A stretch of 64,000 bases of DNA. Origin: Marsupella aquatica. Taxonomy: Eukaryota > Plantae > Marchantiophyta. The stretch's first letter is position 1. Each line of letters opens with the position of its first letter. The DNA lies in the NCBI GenBank assembly GCA_973895155.1, contig OZ316891.1:4371508-4435507 (forward strand), given 5' to 3'. The notes beneath the pieces were generated by a model. That model was not told where the DNA came from. It saw only the letters and a list, made by a program, of their open reading frames with translations, and ran no database searches. Positions 17,148 to 52,436 of this stretch are shown in pieces. The position numbers and the translations under genes were made by a program.

Positions 17148-17267
17148 AAGTCCGATGTTGAGAGAATGGGAAAGTCCGATGCTGAGAGAATGGGAAAGTC
17201 CGATGCTAGGAGAATGGGAAAGTCCGATGCTAGTAGAATGGGAAAGTCCGATGCTGGGAGAATGGGA
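17148..17267 (+). repeat. 24-bp subterminal tandem array of the CACTA element (about 5 units)
   Basis: Unit AAGTCCGATGCTRRGAGAATGGGA, with an inverted counterpart at 18552-18719. Confidence 0.85.
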
Positions 17268-21944: not shown

Positions 21945-22208
21945 CTCGGGGGTTTCACTTCCACAAAAATGGCATATCATGTGCGACGAAGGATAGGATC
22001 ATTTTATTGGTTGTAAGAAAAGACTTAAGAATTTTTGTAGAAGAACAATAGGGTCTTTTAAATTCAATTTTGAGACTTATAAGAACATTAGGGCCTTTTC
22101 AACTTTATAGGGGTTAGAAAATAATAATTTTTTCTTACATTTTAGGGGGTCCGAGGCCTAAAAACGTCACAGGTGATGGGGAGGTCCCCATATAGTGAGA
22201 CCCCCGAG
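21945..22208. mobile_element. MITE of the CTC...GAG family, copy 3 (264 bp)
   Basis: 15-bp TIR CTCGGGGGTTTCACT / AGTGAGACCCCCGAG with 1 mismatch and a perfect 8-bp TSD GGTCCCAG (21937-21944 and 22209-22216). Excision restores the host reading frame. Confidence 0.9.
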
Positions 22209-23166: not shown

Positions 23167-23498
23167 TGTTGAACTATTACGTCATTCGCAACGACCATAC
23201 AACCATGACTCATTCCATGCACACGTAGTCGACACAATCTCTACGTGGTTCACCTCTTCTCCAAGGCTACGTCCACACAAACACTCAAGCTTTACTTCAA
23301 GAGTAGACGAACACACATGCTCTTCCTCTTTCTCAAGTTGCTCCGTTACAATGAGTAAGCACACCACACCAGCGGCTTACACTAGCCCTGGTATATACAA
23401 GGTCACACACGACTAACCTAACCTTAGTTAAGATCCTAACTGTGGTTAGCCTAAGTGCCGTAACCTATGAGTCACAAGACTAAGAACAATCCTTAACA
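23167..23498 (-). repeat. Copia 3' LTR (332 bp)
   Basis: Direct repeat of 29874-30204, preceded on the minus strand by the PPT. Confidence 0.95.
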
Positions 23499-23705
23499 AA
23501 CTCCCCCTTGACTCTAGTCTTGGGGACTGCAATTTCTGCTGTCCATATGAGATACTCAGCGGGAAATTCTAGACAATCACCTAAAACCATAGGTGTCCCC
23601 CTAAAAACCATTTCAGGTTAACTAAGGGTTAACTAGAATTAAGCCGTAGCCATAACAGGATTGAGTAACCCATATACAAAAATTAAATATTGTTAAGTTA
23701 CTCTC

Positions 23706-28240: not shown

Positions 28241-29873
28241 GTGCTATTGCTGTGCTGCTCCCTATATTCTTTTGTCGCTTTTTCCTTCCTTCCTTCTCGT
28301 TGACTCAAAATTCAAATTATGAAAAAATATCGTTTTTTTTGCAACTTTCCAAAAAACTTGAAACTTGTCACCGCCACTTAGCCCACCAACCTAGCAAGCC
28401 AACGCTGAAATCCGAAATAGAAACTGAGTTCTGACGAAAAACTTTTTCACGTTTTGGTCAAGGTGGGTAAAACTCAAAAATTCTCCCCCGTTTTGACCAC
28501 CTCGGGGAATAAGAAAAATTCCAAGTACCACCCGTCGTCAAAAATGCAAATCGAGTGGTGCACCGCGTTGCTAGCTTCAGGGGCTACGTTCTCACCAAAA
28601 AAGATCCGAAAAAATTTATCGTTCGGACCTTGGAATCTTCGACTAAAGGCCAAAAAACAGCTCTCAATTTTTTTTGGAATATTCCTTGGACTGTGCAACA
28701 GGTCTCATAGGGGGCCGTTCCCCCTGTCCAAGCGGTTAATTTGGTGGGTCACCGGGCCCAGGTTGTCGCTTAACCAATGAGGAGCCTGGAAAGGATTAAA
28801 AAACCGGGCCTAAGGGGGTTTAAGCCCCTTAACACCAAAATATTGTCTTAAAAAAGGCGCCAAGCAGTGCACGGGGAGTAAAAAACCAAAATCGAGTCGG
28901 AATGGACAGGGATGGAGCTGCGACAGCCAGGACGGTCAGGACGTCTGGGACGTCCGTGCTGGCTGCGATGTCCGCACCGGCCGTGACATCCGGGATGTCT
29001 GGGACGTCCGCGATGGGAGTATTAGCGAGGAGGAGGAGAGGGTCGCCGACGGGGTATTGACAGGGGTGCAAGGGTCGGGAGGGTGTGTATACACACCAGG
29101 AAAAAGGCCCTATTCTAAGGCAAAATGTGCACAAAAAATAATTTTGTTGGGTTACTCACACTACCGTTATCACTTTACACCAGATAAAGACTAGTTGTCG
29201 ATGGGAAATAATATCGAATTGCACCGGCACCATTTGCAACTCTAGCAGAGTAAAAAAAATCCTGTCACGACTCCTTCACTCCCCGTCAAGTGTCAATCTT
29301 GGACTCAAAATGACCACTGCACCGCGATCTCTCCGTTGAGCCGTTGCACTTCTCGTTTCTTCCTCCGAGTCGGACGCAACGACAAGAAACCCCGCTTCAG
29401 TCAAAAGAAGACTCTATAGCCAGTCAGAAACTCAGAATGGCTCTTTTGCTTGGTACATCGCACTCACTACACCCTCGATAGCAAACCAGCTATCGAAATG
29501 ATCAACTTTGCCCGATCTACGATTTGAGCTAAAGGTTGTGACGCCTCGTGCACCACAAAGCTCACACCGTTGGGAAAACGATCTCAGTTCCCCCCCAAAA
29601 GAACCGTCGAAGAAAACCGTCGAACACAAATCACAAAAAATCCAGAACAACGGAAACGTGAATTCCTCCGCACCACGAACTCCGTTCAGAGATTTCTTTG
29701 CACCGTCGGAAAGCCCTTTCCCCGATCTATCCGTTGAGCCCAACACCTCCAAGTTCCATGCGACAGAACTCCATGAAATCCACCGACTCTAACCGCTGGG
29801 AAAACTATCACCAACACGTCATGAAAATTTTGATCACCTCAACGTCACCTCCCAGGCTTGCTCTGATACCAAT

Positions 29874-30204
29874 TGTTAAACTATTACGTCATTCGCAATG
29901 ACCATACAACCATGACTCATTCTATGCACACGAGTCGACACAATCTCTACGTGGTTCACCTCTTCTCCAAGGCTACGTCCACACAAACACTCAAGCTTTA
30001 CTTCAAGAGTAGACGAACACACATGCTCTTCCTCGTCCTCAAGTTGCTCCGTTACAATGAGTAAGCACACCACACCAACGGCTTACACTAGCCCTGGTAT
30101 ATACAAGGTCACACACGACTAACCTAACCTCAGTTAAGATCCTAACTGTGGTTAGCCTAAGTGCCGTAACCTATGAGTCACAAGACTAAGAGCAATCCTT
30201 AACA
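29874..30204 (-). repeat. Copia 5' LTR (331 bp)
   Basis: Direct repeat of 23167-23498, followed on the minus strand by 2 nt and the tRNA-iMet PBS. Confidence 0.95.
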
Positions 30205-31783
30205 GGGAGCTGAAGCGGGCTCAGGGTGGTATGGCTATTGGGGGGAAGGCTTAGTTATCTCGGCAGAAGAAAAGGCAAGACACGGGGAGTCCCGGCCTGA
30301 GTAGGGTCAGAGCGCACCAAGGAGTGAGAGCCAGAGTCGAGCTTGCTGGGCAAGTGCGAGGCGGGGCCTCGTAGAGACTGGGCATCGACTGCCGTTGGGC
30401 CTGCTGACCCCCTTAGAAGTCGAGTCAACCATGTAAACTGATGCTTCGCTGAGTAAATATAGTCTTTTCCCTCTAATGTTTCCGTGAGTAACTGGTGTTG
30501 TGTGTATGCTTTGTCTAGGCAAAGGCGCCATTTCAAGGGACGTATCGGGTGCGGACTAATGGTAGGGATTGCCACCCATCGCATGTCACAAGGTTCTATC
30601 GCATCGATGGCTTGAAAGCCCCAAGCCGGGAGTTAGTCCGAGTCACTAACTAAGGGAAAATTCCAGCGGTGGTGTCACTTGCCTCTCCAACGGTTAATAC
30701 GTGCAAACCGCACTTTTCTTCGCTTAAACCGTTGGTATCGTATTACGGGGTCGTGGAGGGACGCTATTTGGATTCTTTTCACACCAGGATGAGTATTTTG
30801 GTTTCCGCTCCCGGAAATGTAGGTTTTGATCAAGTCTACCGACTACCCTCACCCCACAGCTTTTGATCAAGTCCTGCCGACTACCCCACTACACCTTCAC
30901 TCGGAGTCACCCAAAGAGTGCTGTCACCACCCCTACTCACAAGGCCGACTCAAACCAAGCAAGTTTCTTCAAATCATAGAACGGGAGAACACAATTCGGA
31001 AAGCGAAAAAGGGAGAAGGAACACACAACAAAAGCCCATCAAGTCAAATGTACAGATCCATATCTCTTGGGAAAAACGATACACATTGCATGAGTAACCC
31101 GGCCTCCTGCCGTCTACTCAACTCCTGCCTCTCCGGACAATGAGTATGGCTCCCCCTCACTACTCTGAACACGCTTTCAAACTCCTCAGGCTCCACTCTA
31201 TCCCTCCTTGCTAACTTCACACTGAGTCCCCCTAACTACTTCGGGGCTATCCCCCTAAATACTGAAAAATCACACCAAAGCACCCCTCACAGGGTCACAA
31301 CGGTGGCGGCTACCCTAGCGGCGCCGCTAAAACCTTGCACTAAGAGAAATCCTTAAACTGAAGAGGAGCATGCGGCACACACATGCTGCTAAAACCCTAA
31401 ACCCAAAACAAGGGGGCCGACGGTGCCTTCGACGGCGCCCCAACAGTACACGTGAACCCTGAAAGTGAGAGGCACCCCAAAATGGCCGAAACTAGGTGCC
31501 CTTCCAAGTGCACACCTGAGCTCACCCCTGGATAGCTCTTCTTTTCCTGCTTCCGAATCACTAAGTCGCTCCCTCAACGGACTTCAGACGCCTGAGTTAT
31601 GGCCGTTTCCGTACCGCAAAAACATAAGTTCTCCAGGCCATAACTTGCTCATCCTGGCTCCGTTTGAGGAGCGCCGCCTCTTGTTGGAATCAGCTCCGCG
31701 AGCTCATCCCAACAAGCCCATGAGTGACCCCCCACTAAAATGTTGGAAATCTGGAGGCCGTACACCCACGTCCGTACGCCTAT

Positions 31784-33640
31784 CTAATCCTCCTCTTCTT
31801 CTTCGCTCTCGGTGCCCGGACTTGTGCCCCGTGAGTGGTCCTCCTCCTCATCACTCACGGGAGTGAGTGCCACCGTACTTTTCTTCTTCTTCGACGGAGT
31901 ACTCTTAGTGCTGCTGCTCCCGCGCTTCCTCAAAGCAGCCAAGGCCTGCCACGCCTTGATGTACCCCTCACCAATTGTGTCCTTCCAGAGGGTAGCCTCT
32001 TCTCCGGACCGCAACTCCAACGGTAGAACTTGCCCCGTGGCCATGGGAGTCCCGGGGGTGACAGACCTGGGTGGCATCCCCGTACTGACCTGAGCCTCCC
32101 GTAACGATTTCCGTACCTCCCGGAGCTTCTTCTCCAAGCTCTTACTCTTCTCCTGACTCTTCTTGGCTCCATCCAACAAGGGTCCATACTTCCCACTAAC
32201 CTCCTTCACCACCATCTCGATAGCTTGGGAGATCACATCCGGGGAAAGTGTGGAGCCAGGTGTGCCGGGACTCTTCCGTTTCCCTAGACTCAGGGCCTCA
32301 CTTCTCTTCGCTCGTGTCTCAAAGGCTGCCACCTGACTCCGTAGTGCTCCCACCTGGTTCCTCCACTCCATCACTTCTCCAGAATTTTGCTTCTCTTTGG
32401 CCAATGCTTGCCTCAACGCTCCTACTTCTTCTGCTTCCTTGGCCTTGGTGGACAAAGCTCCCTTCAAGTTGGTGATCTCTACGTGAGCTGCATTGATGTG
32501 CCTGACCTTCTCATGAATGGTCTGCTCCTTGGTCTTGATCACCTCCTTCAGTGACAGGATGCTCTGCTCTAACGTCTCTACTTTGACTGTGGCGTGCTTG
32601 AGAGACTCCCTCAATGCGTGGACTAGCTTGAGTCCCTCGTGGACTCCCTCTCTGAAATCCCGTAGCTCTGCCAAGTAAACATCCGGAATGTTGTATTCCA
32701 GAGGCTGTTTCGGATCTCCCACGAGTGATTCAAGCCACTCCAATGTGCAATCATCCTCCTGGTTCTCTTCTTCTCTATTATCCTCCCCACCAGCAGACAA
32801 TGATTCCTCCGTGAGCTTCCCTAAAACGGTAGTGGCAATACTCCGGATCTCCGTGGTGAGAGATGATCCCGTGTCTTCATGCCCCGGAGAACCAATCAAC
32901 CCTTCTGCCCTGGCCAATACAAATGACCCCATCAAATGTACAGCCCCACCTGGTTTCACACTCCCGGGCTCAGCGGCCAATAGCTTCTTCAATCCGTAGC
33001 ACCACCATCCGTACACATGGGCTGGGTAGTTCTTGATGTCCATAGCTACCACGAAATGCTCCTCATTCAGCACTCCGGATTGCACGTTGCCAAGAACCCG
33101 TTGATGCACCTTGGCCAGGAAGCCCTTATACTCAACATCCTTGACAGCAGAAAGAGGGATGGCGGTGGTGGAGGTAGGATTGGTCACCCAAGTGGCCACC
33201 ATTTTCAACGTGAGTTCTCCCCTGATATTCCGAGGTGTGAATGAGAATTTCTGATTCTCAAGAAACAATAGCTTAGCCAACTCCACATGGGGCACTACAC
33301 GTTTGAGACATTCAAAGTAGATTCCCTCCGTTCGGAACTCCATCCCGGCCTCAATGTCCCAGCTCTTCCCTGAAGGGATGGTAATCTCCACCTTCATGAA
33401 TTCTGTAAGCCCGGTGGCTTGGAAAATGTTCCGACAATCCTCCATCACCTTGGTGGAGGTCTTGGGATAAATTCGACGAAAAATCTTCCTACCCACCGGT
33501 GAGGAACCCGCTGCCAATCCCGTGCTCATCATAACTTCTCTCTCTTCCCTTTCCCGTGTAATCCGAGTCTCCACGTAGTCACGGTAAGCAGCCTTGTATC
33601 TCCGAATGCGTGACGCACTAAACTCTGGTTGATCTAGCAT
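31784..33640 (-). CDS. LTR-encoded accessory protein, 618 aa (globular N-terminal domain, acidic linker, coiled coil, basic NLS-like tail), 3' LTR copy
   Basis: Uninterrupted ATG-TAG ORF wholly within the LTR. RNIFQATGLTEFM resembles the start of the domain in the other accessory ORFs. It has a long heptad region, KKKK and a terminal acidic tract. Confidence 0.85.
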   Translation of the reverse strand: MLDQPEFSASRIRRYKAAYRDYVETRITREREEREVMMSTGLAAGSSPVGRKIFRRIYPKTSTKVMEDCRNIFQATGLTEFMKVEITIPSGKSWDIEAGMEFRTEGIYFECLKRVVPHVELAKLLFLENQKFSFTPRNIRGELTLKMVATWVTNPTSTTAIPLSAVKDVEYKGFLAKVHQRVLGNVQSGVLNEEHFVVAMDIKNYPAHVYGWWCYGLKKLLAAEPGSVKPGGAVHLMGSFVLARAEGLIGSPGHEDTGSSLTTEIRSIATTVLGKLTEESLSAGGEDNREEENQEDDCTLEWLESLVGDPKQPLEYNIPDVYLAELRDFREGVHEGLKLVHALRESLKHATVKVETLEQSILSLKEVIKTKEQTIHEKVRHINAAHVEITNLKGALSTKAKEAEEVGALRQALAKEKQNSGEVMEWRNQVGALRSQVAAFETRAKRSEALSLGKRKSPGTPGSTLSPDVISQAIEMVVKEVSGKYGPLLDGAKKSQEKSKSLEKKLREVRKSLREAQVSTGMPPRSVTPGTPMATGQVLPLELRSGEEATLWKDTIGEGYIKAWQALAALRKRGSSSTKSTPSKKKKSTVALTPVSDEEEDHSRGTSPGTESEEEEED

Positions 33641-34100
33641 CCATGCATCCCGAAATCAATTTCTCAATCACCAATCCCGTCACCCGTGGCAATGTCAATT
33701 CCCTGGCCCGAAACAGCCCCCGTAGCCCGATCACTTAAATTCTCTCAATTTCCCGTCACTACTCCGTGCGGCCGCCACTAATGCCTGGAAGAATGACGCC
33801 AGCAAGCCCCACTAATCCACCATGAAAGAGAGAGCTTCAAAAATAATTAGAATCTGGAGAGAGCTTCCGGCAAGAGAGAGAAGAACCCCGTTTTTGCTTT
33901 CGGCAATGAGAGGGTCGTGCAAAAGGAAGAGGGAAAGAAAAAGGAAGGAAAAAAAAATAGAACCGAAAAAACTCCTGGCGCCTTCGCCATGCGCCCCGGC
34001 CCATTTCTCGGGCCTTACCCTTGCGTCCTCCTGCGCGCGGCCCTATGCAGGGCGCGCGGCCATTCCTCCCGGCTCGCGGGAGGCCCTTCAACTCCCCCCC

Positions 34101-34386
34101 GCTCGCGTGATCCTCCCAGCTCGCGGGAGGCCCTTTAACTCCCCCCCGCTCGCGTGATCCTCCCAGCTCGCGGGAGGCCCTTTAACTCCCCCCCGCTCGC
34201 GTGATCCTCCCAGCTCGCGGGAGGCCCTTTAACTCCCCCCCGCTCGCGTGATCCTCCCAGCTCGCGGGAGGCCCTTTAACTCCCCCCCGCTCGCGTGATC
34301 CTCCCAGCTCGCGGGAGGCCCTTTAACTCCCCCCCGCTCGCGTGATCCTCCCAGCTCGCGGGAGGCCCTTTAACTCCCCCCCCCCC
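34101..34386. repeat. 47-bp GC-rich VNTR in the 3' LTR (6 units)
   Basis: GCTCGCGTGATCCTCCCAGCTCGCGGGAGGCCCTTTAACTCCCCCCC starts at 34101, 34148, 34195, 34242, 34289 and 34336. Confidence 0.95.
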
Positions 34387-34856
34387 GCTCGCTTGCTCTC
34401 CTTCAGCTCGCGGAGCCTCATTAATTGCCCGGGCACGCAGCCCTATGGGCTCGCGAGGCAGCCCCTTCAGCTCGCGGAGCCCCATTAATCGCCCGGGCAC
34501 GCAGCCCTATGGGCTCGCGAGGCAGCCCCTCTTTCTCTCGGACGGCCACTAATGGGACTCGCCCTCCTGAGGAGGGATTTATTTAAAAAAAAACCCCCCC
34601 CTCTCCTGACTTTGCAATGGGGGTCTCAACAATAGCTCTTGAAGCAAAACGGTAAGTCCTATGGGGCTGGTCCTGGCTAGTTTCAAGGTCCCAAAATATT
34701 TGCCCACTTAGGTCGCCGCAAATCTTAGAACTATTATGAGAGAAAGAATATAAAGTCACCTGGGGCATCATCAACCTATAATGACGGAATTAACTAAAAA
34801 TTAAAAAATGGCTTATTTACATTGACTATTAACAAGGTATCGGCCTTTGCAACCAG

Positions 34857-37800
34857 TTATGTGTGACTTCCCGTGACGGGGTACCCGTCACATAGCTCCT
34901 CTCTTAATTGCGAAGCGCCCCCGCGAGCACCATACTCTTCCTCCGTGTAGTACTTCTTTAGGCGCTCTTGATTGATCCGTGTGTTGAGTAGTTGCCCCTC
35001 CAATGTCTTGAGTTGAACCGAGCCGTTGGAGTAGACGGCATCCACTACGTAGGGTCCCATCCACCGTGTATGCAACTTCCCGGGGAAATGCATGAAGCGG
35101 CTATCGTAGAGGAGCACCAAATCTCCCTCCTCAATGGACACACGACGGAGACGGGAATCGTAATGTGACTTGCGTTTGCCTTGCTCCTGCTCCGTATGTG
35201 TCAAAGCCTCTTCTCGTGTCTCCGTGAGTTGCTCCAACTGTTGGATCCGTGAAGCGACACTTTCTTCTGCCCCTTCCCTTTCCCGTGTTAGGATTCGAAT
35301 GGTTGGAACCTCAAATTCCACCGGCACAAGAGAGTGTTGTCCAAACACAAGGAAATAGGGGCTGTGGCCCGTGGTAGTCTTGTGAGCCAGGTTGTAAGCG
35401 TAAGTGGCAGCCAACAACTTCAAATCCCAATCGGTCTTGTGAGCGGATACCGTTTTGTTGAGGATCTTGCCCATGATCCCGTTGGCTCTCTCAGTGAGCC
35501 CGTTGGCTCGAGGGTGGTACGGAGTGGTCTTCCTATGTGAGATCAAGTAGTTCTCCGTCAAACGTTCAATCGTATGATTGAGGAAGTGAGTACCCCTGTC
35601 ACTTACCAACTCCAATGGTGGACCAAATCGTGTAAAAATCTGCTCATACAAAAAACGTGCCGTGGTGTTGGCATCATCCTTGGCAGTAGCTCGGGCCTCC
35701 ACCCACTTGGTGGCATAGTCCGTTGCAAGAATGATGTAGCGCTTCCTCCCTCTTCGTGTGATGGGAGTGAAAGGGCCAATGAAGTCCACCCCCCACTTCT
35801 CAAAGGGTGCAAGAGGAAGTATGGGCACCAATGGGTGTCGTGAGGAGGGCCCTGGTTTGCCTTGACGCTGGCACGGATCACATCGCTGGATGTACCGGTG
35901 TACATCCCGAAAGAGAGTTGGCCACCAATATCCAGCATCTAGTATTTTCCTTGCGGTGGTCTCCCGTGCAAAGTGGCCACCAGCTTCCTCCTCATGTAAT
36001 GCTGCCATGACTGTACGTATCTCCGCTTCCTCCAAACAACGACGAAGTCGGCCATCCATGCCGTACTTGTGAAGTACTCCCTTCACAAGCAAGTAGGGAC
36101 CTGTCTTACGCAAAAACACTGCTGCTCTCTCCGGGCCCAAACGTGAGGGAACTCTAGCCGTGCGGAGAAATTCCAAAATTTCTCCATACCAAGTAGTGGC
36201 CTCTGTATTCACGCTGAACACTTCCTCATCCGGGAACCGATCATCAATCTCCTGGGAGTCAGATGCTCCCTCAATACGGGAGAAGAAGTCTGCATTGCTA
36301 TGACTCTTCCCCGATCTTACTCTCACCTCATAGTTGAACTCTTGTAGCAACAAAACCCAACGTGCAATTCTCCCGGACAGATCTGGCTTGTTGACCATGT
36401 ATTTCAAGCTGTTGTGATCCGTGTGGAACACAACCTTGTACCCCAACAAATAATGACGATACTTCTTACAAGCGTAGATGATACCAAGTGCCTCCCTATC
36501 GGTGGGTGAGTAGTTTTTCTCTGCCGGGGCCAACTGCCTACTGGCAAAGTAGATGGGATGGTCTCTTCCATCATCATCTAACTGACTCAAAACGGCACCG
36601 ATGCAAAATCCTGATACGTCTACGTAAACATGGAATTCCTTATTCCAATTGGGCGTAATGAGCACGGGGGCCTCTAGCAATCGTTTCTTCAATTCATCAA
36701 AAGCAGCCTGACGGGAAGGAGTAGGTTCAAACTCACTTCCTTTTTTCAACATGGAAGTGAGTGGCATGGCTACCTTGGCAAAGTCTTTGATGAAGCGTCG
36801 GTAGTAGCCAACACACCCCAAGAACCCTCTCACTTCCTTCACATTCTTGGGAAATGAGACTGCTACCCACACGGCGACCTTCTCACGATCAACTTCAATC
36901 CCTCGTGCAGACACTTTGTGGCCCAATAGGATTCCCTCCTCAATTCCAAAGAAACATTTCTCCGGATGCAGCTTCAGGCAAGTCTCCCGGCACCGCTGAA
37001 AAGTCAACCGTAAGTGTTCCGGATGCTTGACTCGTTTGCCGTAGACAGCAAAGTCATCAATAAAGATCTCCAAGAACCTGCGTAAAAAGTCATGAAATAT
37101 ATTCATCATGAGCCGTTGGAACATGCCAGGGGCATTGCACAACCCAAAAGGCATTCTCCGGAATGCAAAAATCCCCCACTCTGTTGTGAAAGCCGTCTTG
37201 AGTTGGTCCTCCTCCCGTATCCAGATTTGGTTGTACCCAGAGTAGCCATCCAAGAAGCTGTATATCTCCCAACCTGCTACCATGTCCAACACGATATCCG
37301 TGAACGGTAGCGGGTAGTGATCCTTCTTGGTCGCATCATTCAACTTTCGAAAATCTTGGCACACCCGTATTTTCACCTTCCCGTCTGGCCCCTTTTTCTT
37401 GGGCACGATTACGATGGGTGACACCCACTCACTATGCATGACCGGATAAATGAATCCTGCATCCAACAAACGGTCAATCTCCTCCTTCACCATGAGTGAG
37501 TATTTGGGGTTGAGGCGGTATTGGCGTTGCCTCACAGGTCGTGCTCCTGACATCAGGTCAATGCTGTGCTCACCAAACTCAGGTGGCACTCCTTTCAAAT
37601 CTTGGTGGCTCCACGCAAATACGTCTTGGTACTCTTTCAACAATTCCTGAATCGTGCGTTGCTCCGTAGCATCCAACTTACTACCAATGTTGAGTGTCTT
37701 GCCCTCACCCACTTCCACCTTTGTGTACTGCTCCGGCCTGATCACGTCCAACTTGTTGCGTGTCTCCTCATCAAAGGTTTCTTCCAACCGTGCGAGCCTC

Positions 37801-40800
37801 ATCCCTCCATACACCGGTGCATCACTCTCCTCCTGGTCTGGTCGGGATGGAGGTGGATCCTTTGTCACATGGGCCATTATTTCTTCAACGTCAGATTCTT
37901 TGTAATGTGACAATAGCTCCTCTCTAAAGTCATCATCCAGGATGTCATTCAAAAACTGCTCTCTTTGCTCATCATCAAACATGATCGTGTGGGCTTGCAT
38001 TTCCACCTCCTCGGGGTGATCCTCTGCCTCCCTATCATGAATCTCTAGAGGTTCAGCCTCCACAATTTTGCTTCGCTCGTCTTCCATCTCTTCTAGAACA
38101 GCGTGCACTTGGCTAACTGATTCCTCTACTGCATGCTCTTGAGTAGCAACTCCGGGGCCAAAAACATCTTCCTCCGTGAGGTGAGAAATCAGTTTCACCA
38201 TGTATACTTCATCCTCGTCTTCATCTGAGGTGACCTCTGAATCATATTCCTCCTCCATAGTCGTAGTCTCCCCGTGAGGTGACTCCGCTGACCATGGAAT
38301 AGTGATAGTGGGGATACCAAACCGAAACTGCCGTTTGCCCCAATCACTTGTGACCTTGGCCACATACAACCATGGCCTGCCAATTAAAATGGGAAAACCG
38401 TACGGCCGAACGGGTCGCATCACCAAATAGTTGAGGGGGAAAGATTTTCCCCCAATCATTGTTGGAATCTTGGTGAGACACCCCAACGGCACCACCCGTG
38501 CACCATCAGCCAACCTCATGGCACGTGCCGGTGGTTCTAACTCTGTATACCCCAACCGGTTTGCCGTCTCCTCAGTCATGATGTTGACTCCCGAGCCCCC
38601 GTCCACCGGTACAAACCGTATTGCACATCCATTGATGTCCACCGTGAGTTCTGGGGCACCCAAATCCTCCGTGACCCAGTTGACTTGTATGGGGTCAGCC
38701 CCAACTTTGGGTAACCTTCTTCTACGTCTCCTCCTCATGAGAATCTCCTTGACTTGGCGACGGTATAGGGAGCTATCCCGTAATAGTTGACCAATTGTGG
38801 CACTGACTGGGCAATCCAGAATGTCTTGAGCAATGTTGTACGCGGTTGCAGGAGGTATGGGTGGGATGACCTCTTCTCCCGGTTTCCAACGAACAACCCT
38901 CTCCTCCGCTTTCTTTCTGGCCTTTGCCTCCTCCATGTCTTTGTCAATGGCCGCTTGCATGGCTTGTGCTTCTAGCTCCTCCAACTGCTTACGTACCTCT
39001 TCTCCCACCTTCGGATAGAACAACTTGGGGTTGTCCCGATCAAAGTCACTATCCTCCATGGGTGGCACCTCCGGTTCGTGTGAGGTACCCGATGTGGAAG
39101 CTTGATGCACCTCCTTGTACTTCTGCTTGAGCTCGGACTTGCCCTTCTTTTTGCCGGATCGAGTGGAGACTCGGTAACAAGAGTAATGCCTTCTCTCCTC
39201 GTCGCTGTCTTCCTCCGGTAGATTCTCAGCATGAGTCCACTCATGACTTGGGGGTGAGGGGTTAGCAACTTCAACTTCCGTAGATGTTGCAACAACAACC
39301 ACCGGTATCTCAACAACTGGAGATACTACAACGACTAGCGGTACCACCTCCTCCGTTATGGTGGTCATCCTTTGCTTGGGAATGTTCACTACGGTTTCTT
39401 CTCTTCTAGTGATTAGAGGGGTGTCGACTGCTTCCGTGGTGAGAAAGTTGACGCTAGCTTCTTTCAGAGGAGGTGGCGGCCCCTTCTTCTCTTGTGCCCC
39501 AATCGGTTGAGCCTTGAACGCCTCCAAGGTTGGGCAGTGTGGTGCAAGATGACCCTCCCCCTTGCATAGTTGACACAGCCGGGCAAAATCTCCATTGCCT
39601 TGACGGGTGGGCTCTGGGCACACATTAGCGTAGTGGCCCGCCACTCTACAATTGTAACAAATAGGGATCTTCCTCACTCCAGGGTACGGTGGTCGATTCC
39701 CTGGGTTAGCGTTGGGATAGTTGGAGTATGCGGGTGCTCCGGCGTTTGTTGAAACTCCATGAATGCTCCGTGGTCCCGGGTTGAGAGGTTGTACACTATA
39801 CACGTTGGCCTCTGGTGGCTCCTCCATGAAGTACTCTATTGGCCCTTCCGCTGCATATGAAGGATTTGAGTAGCTTGCCCCCTCAACATCCTCCTCCCGT
39901 ACTTGGAAAACCTTGGCTGGTTCTCCCGCTGGGCACTCCTTCGGGGCATGACCAAACTTCATGCACTTGGTGCACCACACATTGGCTCTCTCCACCGGAA
40001 CTTTTCTCCTCTCAGGTTTGAGTCCGGCAAAATGTACTTTCAACGCTTTCATTTGCTCCGTCAGCTCATCATATCTGGCCTCTTGCTCCTTCAGGCGTCT
40101 TGCCGTAGACAATGGTGTAACGGCCACCGTGGGTAGTATCACTTCACGGTGAGAGGACTTCTTGACTTTCTTTGACAACTTCTTCTTCTTCCTCCTTCGT
40201 CTTTCAGCTTCTGACTCCGTAGTGTCTGACTCTGTAGTACTCTCAGAATCCTCAGATTCATCACTACTATCTGAATCAGATCCACTCGACTCCTCACTGG
40301 AGGAACTGTCAACCGGCTTCAGCTTCTTTCTTCGGCAACGCTTGCTTGTGGCATCAGCTGCGGTGTATGACTCCGCTGCTGCAATAGCTTCAGCCAATGT
40401 GGTTGGCTTGGCTTGACGTACAAAGAACCCCATCTTGCTTGGTAGGGCAGCCACAAACCAGGCTTGACGCATAGCATCATCGGTACGGGCTTGGATCCGA
40501 CGTACCAGCTTTTGGAACCTTTGCAAAAACCTCCGTAATGACTCCTTCTTCTTCATCCTGAGTTGGCCCACCTTTAATAGTGAGGTGGCCTCCACTCCTA
40601 TGGATCTGAACTCCTTCAAGAAGGCTTGCTTGAACAGAGCCCAATCAGCTTTCACGTTGGCCAACAACGAAATGAACCATGGACCTGCCTCCCCTCTCAT
40701 CATTCCAGGAATGATAGTGAGCTTATGTGCAGACTCCCCATTAGCTTCGGCAATCCCTTCAAACTCCTCAATCCATTCGTCTGGATCATCCTTTGGTCTC

Positions 40801-41255
40801 CCCTTGAAGGGTACGTACTGAACACGGGTACGTTGTGCAGCTGCCATCGGTGCAGCCGGTGCCTGTATCAACACAGGTGGTAATGGCGCTTGTTGGGCCA
40901 CCGGTAACAGCACCGATGATAGGTGTGAGATGATTTGTGGCAATGCAGTGAGCTCTGGGATCAGATTTTGTAACTCAGACTGCACCAACACAAAGGGCTC
41001 TCCTTCTTCTCGCTCGTGATCTATGTCTGGCTCTTCGTCTGGGCATATGGCCTCATTACGTTGAGCCTCTTCCTGTTGCACACCAACTTGTTCTTCCAGC
41101 ACCAGTGGCAACCTCCTCTCTTCTGCAAGCCGTAAGCGTTCTTCGGCAGCAACTCGTCGTCTGGTCCCAATCCAAGAGGGCCCCCCTTCTAGCTCTGATC
41201 TTGGGGTACGTGTGTGTTGGGGACTTCCTCTACCTCCCCTTCTCCCTCTCGGCAT
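34857..41255 (-). CDS. Gag-Pol polyprotein, 2132 aa (Gag with 3 CCHC knuckles, PR, RT, RNaseH, IN)
   Basis: Gag FKGRPKDDPDEWIEEF and three CX2CX4HX4C motifs. PR VDGGSG. RT FLDGYSGYNQI, MPFGLCNAP and FIDDF. RH VDVSG, EALGII and TDH. IN GGHF..CDPCQ, WGVDFIGP, SDRGTHF, ANGLTE and GPY. The ORF runs 36 nt into the 3' LTR. Confidence 0.97.
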   Translation of the reverse strand: MPRGRRGGRGSPQHTRTPRSELEGGPSWIGTRRRVAAEERLRLAEERRLPLVLEEQVGVQQEEAQRNEAICPDEEPDIDHEREEGEPFVLVQSELQNLIPELTALPQIISHLSSVLLPVAQQAPLPPVLIQAPAAPMAAAQRTRVQYVPFKGRPKDDPDEWIEEFEGIAEANGESAHKLTIIPGMMRGEAGPWFISLLANVKADWALFKQAFLKEFRSIGVEATSLLKVGQLRMKKKESLRRFLQRFQKLVRRIQARTDDAMRQAWFVAALPSKMGFFVRQAKPTTLAEAIAAAESYTAADATSKRCRRKKLKPVDSSSSEESSGSDSDSSDESEDSESTTESDTTESEAERRRRKKKKLSKKVKKSSHREVILPTVAVTPLSTARRLKEQEARYDELTEQMKALKVHFAGLKPERRKVPVERANVWCTKCMKFGHAPKECPAGEPAKVFQVREEDVEGASYSNPSYAAEGPIEYFMEEPPEANVYSVQPLNPGPRSIHGVSTNAGAPAYSNYPNANPGNRPPYPGVRKIPICYNCRVAGHYANVCPEPTRQGNGDFARLCQLCKGEGHLAPHCPTLEAFKAQPIGAQEKKGPPPPLKEASVNFLTTEAVDTPLITRREETVVNIPKQRMTTITEEVVPLVVVVSPVVEIPVVVVATSTEVEVANPSPPSHEWTHAENLPEEDSDEERRHYSCYRVSTRSGKKKGKSELKQKYKEVHQASTSGTSHEPEVPPMEDSDFDRDNPKLFYPKVGEEVRKQLEELEAQAMQAAIDKDMEEAKARKKAEERVVRWKPGEEVIPPIPPATAYNIAQDILDCPVSATIGQLLRDSSLYRRQVKEILMRRRRRRRLPKVGADPIQVNWVTEDLGAPELTVDINGCAIRFVPVDGGSGVNIMTEETANRLGYTELEPPARAMRLADGARVVPLGCLTKIPTMIGGKSFPLNYLVMRPVRPYGFPILIGRPWLYVAKVTSDWGKRQFRFGIPTITIPWSAESPHGETTTMEEEYDSEVTSDEDEDEVYMVKLISHLTEEDVFGPGVATQEHAVEESVSQVHAVLEEMEDERSKIVEAEPLEIHDREAEDHPEEVEMQAHTIMFDDEQREQFLNDILDDDFREELLSHYKESDVEEIMAHVTKDPPPSRPDQEESDAPVYGGMRLARLEETFDEETRNKLDVIRPEQYTKVEVGEGKTLNIGSKLDATEQRTIQELLKEYQDVFAWSHQDLKGVPPEFGEHSIDLMSGARPVRQRQYRLNPKYSLMVKEEIDRLLDAGFIYPVMHSEWVSPIVIVPKKKGPDGKVKIRVCQDFRKLNDATKKDHYPLPFTDIVLDMVAGWEIYSFLDGYSGYNQIWIREEDQLKTAFTTEWGIFAFRRMPFGLCNAPGMFQRLMMNIFHDFLRRFLEIFIDDFAVYGKRVKHPEHLRLTFQRCRETCLKLHPEKCFFGIEEGILLGHKVSARGIEVDREKVAVWVAVSFPKNVKEVRGFLGCVGYYRRFIKDFAKVAMPLTSMLKKGSEFEPTPSRQAAFDELKKRLLEAPVLITPNWNKEFHVYVDVSGFCIGAVLSQLDDDGRDHPIYFASRQLAPAEKNYSPTDREALGIIYACKKYRHYLLGYKVVFHTDHNSLKYMVNKPDLSGRIARWVLLLQEFNYEVRVRSGKSHSNADFFSRIEGASDSQEIDDRFPDEEVFSVNTEATTWYGEILEFLRTARVPSRLGPERAAVFLRKTGPYLLVKGVLHKYGMDGRLRRCLEEAEIRTVMAALHEEEAGGHFARETTARKILDAGYWWPTLFRDVHRYIQRCDPCQRQGKPGPSSRHPLVPILPLAPFEKWGVDFIGPFTPITRRGRKRYIILATDYATKWVEARATAKDDANTTARFLYEQIFTRFGPPLELVSDRGTHFLNHTIERLTENYLISHRKTTPYHPRANGLTERANGIMGKILNKTVSAHKTDWDLKLLAATYAYNLAHKTTTGHSPYFLVFGQHSLVPVEFEVPTIRILTREREGAEESVASRIQQLEQLTETREEALTHTEQEQGKRKSHYDSRLRRVSIEEGDLVLLYDSRFMHFPGKLHTRWMGPYVVDAVYSNGSVQLKTLEGQLLNTRINQERLKKYYTEEEYGARGGASQLREELCDGYPVTGSHT
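34893..34905 (-). other. Polypurine tract of family A (AAGAGAGGAGCTA), inside the last pol codons
   Basis: Immediately 5' of the TGTGAC LTR start on the minus strand, and homologous to AAGTGGGGAGCTA at 52412-52424. Confidence 0.8.
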
Positions 41256-41470
41256 CCCATTGAGACCTGCATTCCAAACTTACACCAATGTCTCAGAAAG
41301 CAATATTTGTAAACATCAACCGTCGCACGATGCGTTGTGGTTGACGTACAATAACAAAGTAACCAACAAACTTCTCACGTATCAACCGTCGCAAGTTGCG
41401 TTGTGGTTGATAGGTTTGAACTCCCAATAGACGTAGCTCCCCTCCTTCGTGTCGTCAAACAAGAAGAAGG

Positions 41471-41490
41471 ATTCCCCGGCAGCGGCGCCA
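41471..41490 (-). other. Primer binding site, tRNA-Asp type (TGGCGCCGCTGCCGGGGAAT)
   Basis: Resembles the Athila-type PBS TGGCGCCGTTGCCGGGGA and lies 20 nt downstream of the 5' LTR end at 41511. Confidence 0.8.
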
Positions 41491-42621
41491 AAAACAAAAG
41501 ACCACACTTATGTCACTTGCCTCTCCAACGGTTAATACGTGCAAACCGCACTTTTCTTCGCTTAAACCGTTGGTATCGTATTACGGGGTCGTGGAGGGAC
41601 GCTATTTGGATTCTTTTCACACCAGGATGAGTATTTTGGTTTCCGCTCCCGGAAATGTAGGTTTTGATCAAGTCTACCGACTACCCTCACCCCACAGCTT
41701 TTGATCAAGTCCTGCCGACTACCCCACTACACCTTCACTCGGAGTCACCCAAAGAGTGCTGTCACCACCCCTACTCACAAGGCCGACTCAAACCAAGCAA
41801 GTTTCTTCAAATCATAGAACGGGAGAACACAATTCGGAAAGCGAAAAAGGGAGAAGGAACACACAACAAAAGCCCATCAAGTCAAATGTACAGATCCATA
41901 TCTCTTGGGAAAAACGATACACATTGCATGAGTAACCCGGCCTCCTGCCGTCTACTCAACTCCTGCCTCTCCGGACAATGAGTATGGCTCCCCCTCACTA
42001 CTCTGAACACGCTTTCAAACTCCTCAGGCTCCACTCTATCCCTCCTTGCTAACTTCACACTGAGTCCCCCTAACTACTTCGGGGCTATCCCCCTAAATAC
42101 TGAAAAATCACACCAAAGCACCCCTCACAGGGTCACAACGGTGGCGGCTACCCTAGCGGCGCCGCTAAAACCTTGCACTAAGAGAAATCCTTAAACTGAA
42201 GAGGAGCATGCGGCACACACATGCTGCTAAAACCCTAAACCCAAAACAAGGGGGCCGACGGTGCCTTCGACGGCGCCCCAACAGTACACGTGAACCCTGA
42301 AAGTGAGAGGCACCCCAAAATGGCCGAAACTAGGTGCCCTTCCAAGTGCACACCTGAGCTCACCCCTGGATAGCTCTTCTTTTCCTGCTTCCGAATCACT
42401 AAGTCGCTCCCTCAACGGACTTCAGACGCCTGAGTTATGGCCGTTTCCGTACCGCAAAAACATAAGTTCTCCAGGCCATAACTTGCTCATCCTGGCTCCG
42501 TTTGAGGAGCGCCGCCTCTTGTTGGAATCAGCTCCGCGAGCTCATCCCAACAAGCCCATGAGTGACCCCCCACTAAAATGTTGGAAATCTGGAGGCCGTA
42601 CACCCACGTCCGTACGCCTAT

Positions 42622-44478
42622 CTAATCCTCCTCTTCTTCTTCGCTCTCGGTGCCCGGACTTGTGCCCCGTGAGTGGTCCTCCTCCTCATCACTCACGGGA
42701 GTGAGTGCCACCGTACTTTTCTTCTTCTTCGACGGAGTACTCTTAGTGCTGCTGCTCCCGCGCTTCCTCAAAGCAGCCAAGGCCTGCCACGCCTTGATGT
42801 ACCCCTCACCAATTGTGTCCTTCCAGAGGGTAGCCTCTTCTCCGGACCGCAACTCCAACGGTAGAACTTGCCCCGTGGCCATGGGAGTCCCGGGGGTGAC
42901 AGACCTGGGTGGCATCCCCGTACTGACCTGAGCCTCCCGTAACGATTTCCGTACCTCCCGGAGCTTCTTCTCCAAGCTCTTACTCTTCTCCTGACTCTTC
43001 TTGGCTCCATCCAACAAGGGTCCATACTTCCCACTAACCTCCTTCACCACCATCTCGATAGCTTGGGAGATCACATCCGGGGAAAGTGTGGAGCCAGGTG
43101 TGCCGGGACTCTTCCGTTTCCCTAGACTCAGGGCCTCACTTCTCTTCGCTCGTGTCTCAAAGGCTGCCACCTGACTCCGTAGTGCTCCCACCTGGTTCCT
43201 CCACTCCATCACTTCTCCAGAATTTTGCTTCTCTTTGGCCAATGCTTGCCTCAACGCTCCTACTTCTTCTGCTTCCTTGGCCTTGGTGGACAAAGCTCCC
43301 TTCAAGTTGGTGATCTCTACGTGAGCTGCATTGATGTGCCTGACCTTCTCATGAATGGTCTGCTCCTTGGTCTTGATCACCTCCTTCAGTGACAGGATGC
43401 TCTGCTCTAACGTCTCTACTTTGACTGTGGCGTGCTTGAGAGACTCCCTCAATGCGTGGACTAGCTTGAGTCCCTCGTGGACTCCCTCTCTGAAATCCCG
43501 TAGCTCTGCCAAGTAAACATCCGGAATGTTGTATTCCAGAGGCTGTTTCGGATCTCCCACGAGTGATTCAAGCCACTCCAATGTGCAATCATCCTCCTGG
43601 TTCTCTTCTTCTCTATTATCCTCCCCACCAGCAGACAATGATTCCTCCGTGAGCTTCCCTAAAATGGTAGTGGCAATACTCCGGATCTCCGTGGTGAGAG
43701 ATGATCCCGTGTCTTCATGCCCCGGAGAACCAATCAACCCTTCTGCCCTGGCCAATACAAATGACCCCATCAAATGTACAGCCCCACCTGGTTTCACACT
43801 CCCGGGCTCAGCGGCCAATAGCTTCTTCAATCCGTAGCACCACCATCCGTACACATGGGCTGGGTAGTTCTTGATGTCCATAGCTACCACGAAATGCTCC
43901 TCATTCAGCACTCCGGATTGCACGTTGCCAAGAACCCGTTGATGCACCTTGGCCAGGAAGCCCTTATACTCAACATCCTTGACAGCAGAAAGAGGGATGG
44001 CGGTGGTGGAGGTAGGATTGGTCACCCAAGTGGCCACCATTTTCAACGTGAGTTCTCCCCTGATATTCCGAGGTGTGAATGAGAATTTCTGATTCTCAAG
44101 AAACAATAGCTTAGCCAACTCCACATGGGGCACTACACGTTTGAGACATTCAAAGTAGATTCCCTCCGTTCGGAACTCCATCCCGGCCTCAATGTCCCAG
44201 CTCTTCCCTGAAGGGATGGTAATCTCCACCTTCATGAATTCTGTAAGCCCGGTGGCTTGGAAAATGTTCCGACAATCCTCCATCACCTTGGTGGAGGTCT
44301 TGGGATAAATTCGACGAAAAATCTTCCTACCCACCGGTGAGGAACCCGCTGCCAATCCCGTGCTCATCATAACTTCTCTCTCTTCCCTTTCCCGTGTAAT
44401 CCGAGTCTCCACGTAGTCACGGTAAGCAGCCTTGTATCTCCGAATGCGTGACGCACTAAACTCTGGTTGATCTAGCAT
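42622..44478 (-). CDS. LTR-encoded accessory protein, 618 aa, 5' LTR copy
   Basis: Matches 31784..33640 except one V/I change (TTVLG vs TTILG). Confidence 0.85.
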   Translation of the reverse strand: MLDQPEFSASRIRRYKAAYRDYVETRITREREEREVMMSTGLAAGSSPVGRKIFRRIYPKTSTKVMEDCRNIFQATGLTEFMKVEITIPSGKSWDIEAGMEFRTEGIYFECLKRVVPHVELAKLLFLENQKFSFTPRNIRGELTLKMVATWVTNPTSTTAIPLSAVKDVEYKGFLAKVHQRVLGNVQSGVLNEEHFVVAMDIKNYPAHVYGWWCYGLKKLLAAEPGSVKPGGAVHLMGSFVLARAEGLIGSPGHEDTGSSLTTEIRSIATTILGKLTEESLSAGGEDNREEENQEDDCTLEWLESLVGDPKQPLEYNIPDVYLAELRDFREGVHEGLKLVHALRESLKHATVKVETLEQSILSLKEVIKTKEQTIHEKVRHINAAHVEITNLKGALSTKAKEAEEVGALRQALAKEKQNSGEVMEWRNQVGALRSQVAAFETRAKRSEALSLGKRKSPGTPGSTLSPDVISQAIEMVVKEVSGKYGPLLDGAKKSQEKSKSLEKKLREVRKSLREAQVSTGMPPRSVTPGTPMATGQVLPLELRSGEEATLWKDTIGEGYIKAWQALAALRKRGSSSTKSTPSKKKKSTVALTPVSDEEEDHSRGTSPGTESEEEEED

Positions 44479-44938
44479 CCATGCATCCCGAAATCAATTT
44501 CTCAATCACCAATCCCGTCACCCGTGGCAATGTCAATTCCCTGGCCCGAAACAGCCCCCGTAGCCCGATCACTTAAATTCTCTCAATTTCCCGTCACTAC
44601 TCCGTGCGGCCGCCACTAATGCCTGGAAGAATGACGCCAGCAAGCCCCACTAATCCACCATGAAAGAGAGAGCTTCAAAAATAATTAGAATCTGGAGAGA
44701 GCTTCCGGCAAGAGAGAGAAGAACCCCGTTTTTGCTTTCGGCAATGAGAGGGTCGTGCAAAAGGAAGAGGGAAAGAAAAAGGAAGGAAAAAAAAATAGAA
44801 CCGAAAAAACTCCTGGCGCCTTCGCCATGCGCCCCGGCCCATTTCTCGGGCCTTACCCTTGCGTCCTCCTGCGCGCGGCCCTATGCAGGGCGCGCGGCCA
44901 TTCCTCCCGGCTCGCGGGAGGCCCTTCAACTCCCCCCC

Positions 44939-45083
44939 GCTCGCGTGATCCTCCCAGCTCGCGGGAGGCCCTTTAACTCCCCCCCGCTCGCGTGATCCTC
45001 CCAGCTCGCGGGAGGCCCTTTAACTCCCCCCCGCTCGCGTGATCCTCCCAGCTCGCGGGAGGCCCTTTAACTCCCCCCCCCCC
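44939..45083. repeat. 47-bp GC-rich VNTR in the 5' LTR (3 units)
   Basis: Units start at 44939, 44986 and 45033. The missing 3 x 47 = 141 bp accounts exactly for the LTR length difference. Confidence 0.95.
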
Positions 45084-45589
45084 GCTCGCTTGCGCTCCTT
45101 CAGCTCGCGGAGCCTCATTAATTGCCCGGGCACGCAGCCCTATGGGCTCGCGAGGCAGCCCCTTCAGCTCGCGGAGCCCCATTAATCGCCCGGGCACGCA
45201 GCCCTATGGGCTCGCGAGGCAGCCCCTCTTTCTCTCGGACGGCCACTAATGGGACTCGCCCTCCTGAGGAGGGATTTATTTAAAAAAAAACCCCCCCCTC
45301 TCCTGACTTTGCAATGGGGGTCTCAACAATAGCTCTTGAAGCAAAACGGTAAGTCCTATGGGGCTGGTCCTGGCTAGTTTCAAGGTCCCAAAATATTTGC
45401 CCACTTAGGTCGCCGCAAATCTTAGAACTATTATGAGAGAAAGAATATAAAGTCACCTGGGGCATCATCAACCTATAATGACGGAATTAACTAAAAATTA
45501 AAAAATGGCTTATTTACATTGACTATTAACAAGGTATCGGCCTTTGCAACCAGTTATGTGTGACTTCCCGTGACGGGGTACCCGTCACA

Positions 45590-52200: not shown

Positions 52201-52436
52201 TGCTACTTTATGACAGTAGGTATAGTAGGTTTCCAGGAAAGCTTTACACTCGCTGGTTAGGACCCTTTAGAGTAACCATGATGTTCCCCAATGGCTCCGT
52301 ACAATTGGCCAACATTACGGGAGAGGTATATCCAGTTCGCATCCATTATGACCGCCTCAAGAAATACTATATGGACGAAGATGAAGTTGTTCGCGAGGAC
52401 GCTTCACAATTAAGTGGGGAGCTATGTGATGCCTAG
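46270..52436 (+). pseudogene. Gag-Pol of family B, disrupted (frame change near 49170-49263, in-frame TAG near 49338 and at 50736-50738)
   Basis: ORF 46270..49263 holds Gag, 3 CCHC and PR IDGGSG. ORF 49365..50738 holds RT FMDGYSGYNQI and FIDDF. ORF 50739..52436 holds RH and IN. All are collinear with the 2132-aa ORF, and SVLS*LDEKG corresponds to AVLSQLDDDG. Confidence 0.92.

What the first reader, a model, noticed from the sequence alone, without database searches (positions are those of the whole stretch)
30673..45589. Ty3 retrotransposon whose two 4-kb LTRs each encode a complete 618-aa protein
Seen: an intact element with near-identical LTRs (4220 and 4079 bp), each holding an uninterrupted sense-strand 1857-nt ORF that ends 1.1 kb before the LTR end. 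The internal region is only PBS, leader and gag-pol. Established: extra ORFs of Athila, SIRE, Ogre and Retand normally lie in the internal region, while U3-encoded genes are known from retroviruses (MMTV sag, and HIV nef partly). Inference: the plus-strand primer site lies upstream of the accessory gene, so reverse transcription duplicates the gene into both LTRs and any solo LTR would remain a complete gene cassette. The coiled-coil, NLS-bearing product is a candidate trans-activator, anti-silencing or targeting factor. I know of no description of this layout in plants but cannot check the literature.
Basis: partly seen in the sequence, partly recalled or inferred. Interest (0 to 1): 0.92.

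Follow-up and report, generated by a model that had tools for sequence, protein, structure and literature searches.

The report
Retrotransposon LTRs carrying a whole gene
A very young jumping gene, probably from a liverwort, carries a complete 618-amino-acid gene inside each of its two 4-kb terminal repeats, likely because plus-strand priming lies upstream of that gene, so even a left-over lone repeat would still hold a predicted regulatory gene.

Summary
Confirmed. The element (E1, minus strand) has 4079/4220-bp LTRs differing by 2 substitutions, each holding the same 618-codon ORF; inside lie only a tRNA-Asp primer site, leader and gag-pol. The LTR starts TGTGAC right after a purine-tract block at the integrase end; no such block follows the ORF. 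In 2 of 4 public runs laid, exact-match contigs over the ORF have 2.2 times the depth of gag-pol, so the layout looks family-wide. A sister family in the window shows it independently: an LTR starting inside a CACTA gene holds a decayed accessory ORF. One relative has the same block after an internal ORF with a 991-bp LTR, the likely ancestral state. Correction: there is no target-site duplication; the flanks are LTRs of two different families, so this copy is recombinant or mis-joined. The protein has 14 homologues (named ones: liverwort Calypogeia fissa), no Pfam match, a coiled coil and no membrane helix; a Transposase_32/PMD-like nuclear regulator is inferred, not shown. U3 versus R and expression are untested. 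My paper searches found no plant precedent; the scan noted LTR-borne genes before in moss and fungal DNA.

The parts
41511..45589 (-). E1 5' LTR, 4079 bp, TGTGAC...GTGACA
42622..44478 (-). Accessory ORF in 5' LTR, 618 aa: N-terminal alpha/beta domain (about 45-255), acidic linker, coiled coil (about 320-520), conserved C-terminal block, basic/acidic tail
44902..45227 (.). GC-rich tandem repeats upstream of the ORF (47-mer x3.8, 64-mer x2); candidate promoter/enhancer (inferred)
41641..41654 (-). Hairpin TTCCG-N4-CGGAA near the LTR end, shared with E2 and E3 LTRs
41473..41490 (-). Primer-binding site, tRNA-Asp type, 20 nt downstream of the LTR end
   Evidence: 17 of 18 nt equal to the tRNA-Asp PBS printed for FIDEL in PMC2844528
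34857..41255 (-). gag-pol, 2132 aa: Gag, CCHC knuckles, protease, RT, RNase H, integrase; no aRH or chromodomain hit; ends 36 nt inside the 3' LTR
34893..34933 (-). Conserved purine-tract block ending GAGGAGCTA|TG, overlapping the integrase C-terminus; likely plus-strand primer site
30673..34892 (-). E1 3' LTR, 4220 bp (three extra 47-mer units)
31784..33640 (-). Accessory ORF in 3' LTR, 618 aa
45590..46200 (+). Right flank: last 611 bp of the 5' LTR of sister element E2, cut by E1
46270..52436 (+). E2 gag-protease ORF (997 aa) and pol (one in-frame stop at 50736); 63% identical to E1 pol
52425..57051 (+). E2 predicted 3' LTR, 4627 bp, after the same purine block; ends TGTGATGC / GCACCACA
52540..56139 (+). 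E2 accessory ORF, 1199 aa, Transposase_32/ATHILA-like domain (lead) plus coiled coil; not detectably related to the E1 ORF
21126..30672 (+). Left flank E4: older LTR starting TGTGAC directly after CACTA transposase coding DNA, holding a decayed homologue of the E2 ORF, split by a copia element (about 23167-30204, TSD GGGAG) and cut by E1
62113..64000 (-). E3: LTR end with C-terminal part of an E2-type ORF; runs off the window

Best explanation
E1 is a very young Ty3 retrotransposon, likely from a liverwort, whose two 4-kb LTRs each contain a complete, conserved 618-codon gene, likely because plus-strand priming occurs at the end of integrase, upstream of a formerly internal extra ORF. Shown: LTR ends, PBS, purine block, ORF identity, homologues. 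Inferred (standard reverse transcription): everything from the plus-strand primer to the RNA 3' end is copied into both LTRs, so the gene doubles at each transposition and would stay behind in a solo LTR. Inferred origin: an Athila-like ancestor had pol - eORF - purine block - short LTR (as in L001); the working block came to lie before the eORF and the downstream one was lost. Predicted: the ORF lies in U3 with its own promoter in the GC-rich first 1.1 kb, and the genomic RNA starts downstream of it (about 65%; long R 35%). Predicted product: a soluble nuclear coiled-coil protein with a highly diverged Transposase_32/PMD/TRP28-type domain (about 50%) that promotes the family's transcription or counters silencing in trans (about 40%; targeting or RNA handling are the alternatives). 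This copy itself is likely a recombinant of two near-identical insertions, or an assembly join between them.
For: LTR begins TG exactly after the purine block and ends CA before a tRNA-Asp PBS. A profile built only from 5 foreign loci hits the window at just two places with E<0.01, the integrase ends of E1 and E2, and not after either ORF; no purine run of 10 or more followed by TG lies after the E1 ORF. Depth of the listed exact-match contigs, LTR/ORF over internal: 1586/708 = 2.24 in X1, 6220/2806 = 2.22 in X2; in X1 the ORF contig (1599) equals the LTR-end contig (1572). E4 starts TGTGAC straight after CACTA coding DNA, no pol upstream, and holds an E2-ORF homologue 1.57 kb in (27% over 143 aa, E 1e-11). 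L001: block after a 745-aa ORF, 991-bp LTR, same PBS; L030 also internal ORF with short LTR. Protein: 13 hits in 1.84 billion representatives plus 1 more, 27-62% identical, blocks along the whole length, same start in P0121; 3 named ones are Calypogeia fissa. The 2 listed indels inside the ORF are 3 nt, the 10 listed outside are 1-2 nt (12 of 33 shown). No membrane helix (max KD19 1.09); basic clusters at 454, 504, 571, 584. Atlas leads: PMD and Transposase_28 for E1 (0.77), Transposase_32/ATHILA for the E2 domain (0.90).
Against: No TSD at this locus, so this copy alone does not prove the ends. Runs X3 and X7 gave low, uneven depth with no twofold step; run types are not on record and the tool warns that depth is no copy number. 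None of the 24 loose ends shown (of 969) lay at an LTR end. Minor contigs skip 64 and 385 nt within the ORF, and most homologues are fragments. The E1 protein is not linked to the E2/L001 accessory family by HMM or hhalign (scores below shuffled controls), so L001 is an analogue for layout, not a proven ancestor of this gene. The tree backbone is unresolved, so the direction of the shift is parsimony only. The Atlas score for E1 is at a level that shuffled proteins often reach.
Confidence: 0.75

Rival explanations
1. The gene is in the LTR but in a long R region: one promoter near the LTR start makes an RNA that either stops at the poly(A) site in the 5' LTR (accessory mRNA) or reads through (genomic RNA, accessory ORF first).
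For: The first 1.1 kb of the LTR has GC-rich tandem repeats and a pyrimidine-rich tract, and no clear TATA box was seen by eye after the ORF. In E2 the ORF starts only 115 bp after the predicted LTR start, little room for a separate promoter.
Against: It needs a minus strong-stop DNA above 3 kb and Gag translation behind a 618-codon ORF (inference). In L001 a 991-bp LTR wholly downstream of the ORF must hold promoter and R; E1, E2 and E3 share motifs just after the ORF and near the LTR end.
Confidence: 0.25
2. The true LTR is short; the 4-kb repeat is a local tandem, recombinant or mis-assembly of a family with one internal ORF.
For: No TSD; flanks from two different families; relatives L001 and L030 do have internal ORFs and short LTRs; two of four runs were uninformative.
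Against: A chance break would not fall exactly on TG after the conserved block; no block after the ORF; ORF depth equals LTR-end depth and is 2.2 times gag-pol in X1 and X2; E4 shows a gene-bearing LTR with a foreign 5' flank.
Confidence: 0.06
3. The ORF is a neutral passenger swept into the LTR and intact only because the family is young.
For: LTRs 99.95% identical; many homologues are fragments; deletions in minor contigs; expression untested.
Against: Homologues at 27-62% identity keep motif blocks over the whole protein, up to Calypogeia; coding-frame codon use; in-frame indels only among those listed.
Confidence: 0.08
4. The protein is an env-like or particle-movement factor rather than a nuclear regulator.
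For: Sense 3' aORFs of Athila/SIRE are called env-like (PMC7264820); long coiled coil.
Against: No transmembrane segment in E1 or E2 ORFs; basic clusters in the tail.
Confidence: 0.1

Closest known systems
Athila (Ty3, non-chromovirus, OTA) with 3' extra ORF (PMC6317226, PMC7264820)
   Same: No aRH, no chromodomain, tRNA-Asp PBS, single gag-pol, sense extra ORF downstream of pol; the sister element's ORF resembles Transposase_32/ATHILA (lead), a domain reported in an Athila aORF (PMC11728184).
   Different: [quoted passage not shown]
aRH-less Tat Z1/Z2 of liverworts and mosses (PMC10508981); Phygy and Selgy (PMC6317226)
   Same: Bryophyte non-chromoviruses without aRH; in Phygy/Selgy the polyprotein fills the internal region, as here.
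   Different: Phygy uses tRNA-Trp, Selgy tRNA-Ala, no eORFs listed; Z1/Z2 representatives have LTRs of 108-2672 nt and no LTR ORF is annotated in Table S3. Placement not testable without reference sequences.
Ogre, Retand, Grande aORFs (PMD, TRP28; PMC11963269, PMC7264820)
   Same: Family-wide accessory gene, predicted nuclear/DNA-binding domain plus coiled coil; Ogre-type elements reach 5-kb LTRs.
   Different: Those have aRH and internal, mostly antisense aORFs; their long LTRs are not described as coding in the passages read.
MMTV sag/naf in U3 (PMC9412291, passages)
   Same: ORF inside the LTR, present twice in the integrated form, reported to use a U3 promoter.
   Different: Animal retrovirus, unrelated protein; here U3 position and promoter are predicted only.

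Membership tests
Ty3 LTR retrotransposon | Gag-PR-RT-RH-INT order between TG...CA repeats with PBS and PPT | tested here: met
Ty3 LTR retrotransposon | Target-site duplication | tested here: not met
   No match at 4, 5 or 6 bp at this copy; other copies not seen
Athila | No aRH, no chromodomain | tested here: met
   Pfam scan and RH-INT junction
Athila | tRNA-Asp PBS (72% of members, PMC6317226 file 3) | tested here: met
   17 of 18 nt equal to the FIDEL tRNA-Asp PBS
Athila | Extra ORF in the internal region 3' of pol | tested here: not met
   ORF lies inside both LTRs
Athila | RT/INT clade membership | tested here: inconclusive
   E1, E2, P0001, P0003 form a clade (100/99) apart from 8 angiosperm rows; backbone open; rows carry no lineage labels
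Phygy | tRNA-Trp PBS | tested here: not met
   PBS is tRNA-Asp type
Phygy | Polyprotein spans nearly the whole internal region | tested here: met
   gag-pol covers all but 255 nt of the internal region
Tat Z1/Z2 (aRH-less) | No aRH, native RNase H not degraded | tested here: met
   No aRH hit; acidic residues at the expected RNase H positions by eye
Tat Z1/Z2 (aRH-less) | Clusters with Z1/Z2 references | not testable with these tools
   Supplement gives names and LTR lengths, no sequences seen
Ogre/Retand (Tat with aRH) | aRH between RH and INT | tested here: not met
Transposase_32/PMD/TRP28-type accessory protein (E1 ORF) | Profile match to PF20167, PF10536, PF04195 or PF03078 | tested here: inconclusive
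   No Pfam hit; Atlas 0.77 lead; no link to E2-type family; model pLDDT 52, best Z 4.3
MMTV-type LTR-encoded accessory gene | Whole ORF inside the LTR, duplicated in the integrated copy | tested here: met
MMTV-type LTR-encoded accessory gene | ORF in U3, expressed from an LTR promoter | not testable with these tools
   No raw RNA reads available for start or end mapping

The most novel reading that the evidence does not exclude
A bryophyte lineage of Ty3 elements has moved its accessory gene into the LTR so that solo LTRs, the usual dead end of host purging, stay behind as self-contained cassettes expressing a trans-acting anti-silencing or activating protein; different families load different genes into this slot.
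Probability: 0.2. Interest if true: 0.87.

Novelty: new variant of a known kind. Interest (0 to 1): 0.68.

Why it matters
Plant LTRs are treated as non-coding, and extra ORFs as internal; both reviews read say so. A clade with 4-4.6-kb coding LTRs would be mis-delimited by LTR finders with usual size limits, and its ORFs would enter gene catalogues as orphan genes (the named homologues are 'unnamed protein product'). The pair L001 (block after the ORF) and E1 (block before it) shows how an LTR boundary can jump over a gene. A young, nearly clonal family with an intact gene is a good substrate for testing what plant retrotransposon accessory proteins do, which is an open question, and whether solo LTRs keep regulating their family.

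Tried and rejected
No genome is held for the window, so full copies, solo LTRs and TSDs could not be counted. No RNA holder listed; no statement on expression follows. Loose ends shown (24 of 969) gave no insertion junctions. Word-based search with the ORF alone found nothing; the profile search found 2 proteins. Viral contigs: no relative. BLASTP E1 ORF against E2 ORF: no real match. HMM and hhalign tests of kinship between the E1 ORF and the E2/L001-type family failed although a pattern looked alike by eye: rejected as evidence. AlphaFold single-sequence pLDDT 44.5; domain with 9 sequences pLDDT 52; Foldseek viral no E<=0.001; VIA-align best Z 4.3: no fold assigned. A purine run plus TG after the E2 ORF (about 56180) was considered as an alternative E2 LTR start; it lacks the conserved block and gives a poorer terminal repeat, but is not excluded. 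For L003, L004, L006, L008, L010 the block follows integrase; only L006 has enough DNA (876 bp) after its ORF to show no second block, so they are suggestive only. DNA-level dN/dS of the ORF could not be computed: no ORF variant was among the 40 of 933 variant rows shown. Paper searches for a plant LTR-encoded gene gave no precedent; three hits checked were false; some searches found the reviews; (two purine tracts in Athila) found nothing, so that point is recalled only and not used. Subscription papers (e.g. Steinbauerova 2011) and Neumann's per-element file 1 were not seen and may hold a precedent.
Full report
Observation. Self-comparison gives a direct repeat at 30673-34892 and 41511-45589. 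On the minus strand both copies start TGTGAC and end GTGACA; they differ by 2 substitutions in 4079 aligned columns and by three units of a 47-bp tandem repeat. Each holds a 618-codon ORF at LTR positions 1112-2968. The frame is far longer than in 300 Markov resamples (623 against at most 310 codons) and its codon use follows gag-pol (r 0.87; other frames 0.26 or less). Between the repeats lie a 20-nt spacer, a PBS (41490-41473; 17 of 18 nt equal to the tRNA-Asp PBS printed in PMC2844528), a 217-nt leader and one 2132-aa Gag-PR-RT-RH-INT ORF without aRH or chromodomain hits, ending 36 nt inside the 3' repeat.

A correction. There is no target-site duplication. The right flank is the last 611 bp of the 5' LTR of a sister element, E2; the left flank continues an older LTR, E4, of another family. 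The simplest reading is recombination, or an assembly join, between two near-identical E1 insertions (inference). LTR identity therefore dates the family's burst, not this insertion, and the LTR ends had to be tested by other means.

Are the 4-kb repeats true LTRs? Four lines say yes. (1) The repeat begins on the TG that follows a purine-tract block at the end of integrase. The same block occurs at the integrase end of E2 and in metagenomic relatives; a profile built from five foreign loci alone finds only these two window sites with E<0.01 (7e-6, 1e-3) and nothing after either ORF. No purine run of 10 or more followed by TG lies after the E1 ORF. (2) Eight of 12 listed runs hold the stretch or part of it. 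Of four laid, X1 and X2 gave even, high depth: listed contigs with at most one other letter average 708 (6 internal) against 1586 (2 in the LTR) in X1, and 2806 (3; one diverged contig dropped) against 6220 (4) in X2, ratios 2.24 and 2.22. In X1 a contig inside the ORF (1599) equals one near the LTR end (1572). This fits two ORFs per element plus few solo LTRs and does not fit one internal ORF. X3 and X7 were shallow and uneven; run types are not on record, one run may be the window's source, and the tool cautions against reading depth as copy number. (3) E4 starts TGTGAC at 21126 directly after CACTA transposase coding sequence, with no pol upstream, and 1.57 kb inside carries a decayed homologue of the E2 accessory protein (27% over 143 aa, E 1e-11): a gene inside an LTR whose 5' end is fixed by foreign DNA. 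(4) E2's block-defined 3' LTR would be 4627 bp with ends TGTGATGC/GCACCACA and contain a 1199-aa ORF; this is predicted, since its 5' LTR is cut.

Relatives and origin. The closest named pol sequences are Riccia sorocarpa (55-58%) and Marchantia (47%), ahead of angiosperms (about 43%); E1 and E2 share a clade (100/99) on an integrase tree with an open backbone. Of 80 loci fetched, many with enough downstream DNA carry a long sense ORF after integrase. L001, a circular contig, runs pol - partial purine tract - 745-aa ORF - full block|TGTGATG - 991-bp LTR - the same PBS as E1. L030 also has an internal ORF and a short LTR fixed by a flank. In L003, L004, L006, L008 and L010 the block follows integrase as in E1. 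Since angiosperm Athila and these relatives have internal ORFs, the likely history is a shift of the working primer block to the front of the ORF; direction rests on parsimony only.

The protein. No Pfam family. HMMER over 1.84 billion representatives found 13 relatives (27-62% identity), a profile search one more; three carry names, all Calypogeia fissa, which points to a liverwort host (inference). Conserved blocks cover the N-terminal domain, a W-x-x-x-L-x-G-D motif, the coiled coil and a C-terminal LWK...GY...AW block. Of 12 indels shown (33 in all), the 2 in the ORF are 3 nt and the 10 outside are 1-2 nt; minor contigs skip 64 and 385 nt in the ORF. There is no membrane helix; basic clusters lie in the tail. 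The E2 protein belongs weakly to the L001-L006 family (12.6 bits, best of 300 shuffles 3.5) and its domain is nearest to Transposase_32/ATHILA clusters (0.90). The E1 protein could not be tied to that family; its Atlas neighbours PMD and Transposase_28 score only 0.77, and folds were too weak to search usefully.

How it most likely works. Shown: anatomy above. From established reverse transcription: DNA from the plus-strand primer to the RNA 3' end becomes U3-R and is copied to both ends, so the gene is doubled and survives solo-LTR formation. Predicted: ORF in U3, own promoter in the repeat-rich first 1.1 kb, genomic RNA starting downstream (65%), as reported for MMTV sag with its U3 promoter (PMC9412291, passages); a long R is the rival. 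Predicted function: nuclear trans-regulator. Basis: architecture, Grande's nuclear aORF protein and predicted DNA binding of TRP28 (PMC7264820 parts 1-2 of 3; PMC11963269 passages), and silencing roles of host PMD proteins (PMC5418596 abstract and opening). None of this was tested on this protein.

Novelty. PMC7264820 and PMC6317226 (passages and supplementary file 3) describe plant extra ORFs as internal and long LTRs up to about 5 kb without mention of coding; PMC10508981 (parts 1-2 of 3, supplement part 3) lists aRH-less liverwort elements with LTRs up to 2672 nt and no LTR ORF; PMC11728184, PMC13468544 and PMC12885004 were seen as passages or term counts only. Six targeted searches found no plant case; the library lacks most subscription papers. 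The scan's own unchecked notes report LTR-borne genes in moss and fungal elements, none on this sequence, so the layout may recur widely. Verdict: real, family-wide, apparently undescribed in plants; a new variant of accessory-gene-bearing Ty3 elements that works like MMTV's LTR gene in layout; function open.

Noticed in passing
window 41491-41510 (-): The PBS lies 20 nt from the LTR end (4 nt in E2, about 11 in L001); integrase would have to trim an unusually long cDNA end.
   Followed up: partly
window 45589, 52425, 21126: All three LTR starts begin TGTGA and fold into a hairpin within the first 22 nt, with different stem sequences.
   Followed up: partly
window 41641-41654, 56791-56804, 62331-62344: Hairpin TTCCG-N4-CGGAA followed by CAAA-ATAC 140-260 nt before the LTR end in E1, E2 and E3, whose LTRs are otherwise hardly alignable.
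   Followed up: partly
window 42611 (-), 56173 (+), 62984 (-): GGACGTGG (G-box-like, label recalled) 10-35 nt after the accessory ORF stop in all three families; possible promoter element of the genomic RNA.
   Followed up: no
window 30672/30673 and 45589/45590: Both E1 junctions lie in the post-ORF part of LTRs of sister families, and E2 and E4 both sit in CACTA transposase genes; possible nesting preference.
   Followed up: no
window 46270-57051 (+): E2 is young (1 substitution in 611 bp of LTR) yet has one in-frame stop in pol at 50736 and gag-protease separate from pol.
   Followed up: partly
window 23167-30204 (-): Copia element with 332-bp LTRs (8 differences in 331), TSD GGGAG, broken ORFs, inserted in E4.
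   Followed up: partly
L014, L015, L017, L020, L021, L026, L028, L030, L046, L067: A second clade with 600-1200-aa sense ORFs after pol, sharing a domain distantly related to the L001-L006 family (hhalign 77%); no Pfam name for the three scanned beyond a chance-level hit.
   Followed up: partly
L012:1483-9234: Integrase continues for over 430 codons into a coiled-coil-rich extension; accessory part possibly fused to pol.
   Followed up: no
window 9811-10491 (+): Exon of a flavin monooxygenase (FMO-like, YUCCA-type by recall) host gene.
   Followed up: no
window 6348-6964; 17127-17297 and 18550-18727: 61-bp tandem array (10 copies, 96%) and two inverted arrays of a 24-bp unit, probably transposon subterminal repeats.
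   Followed up: no
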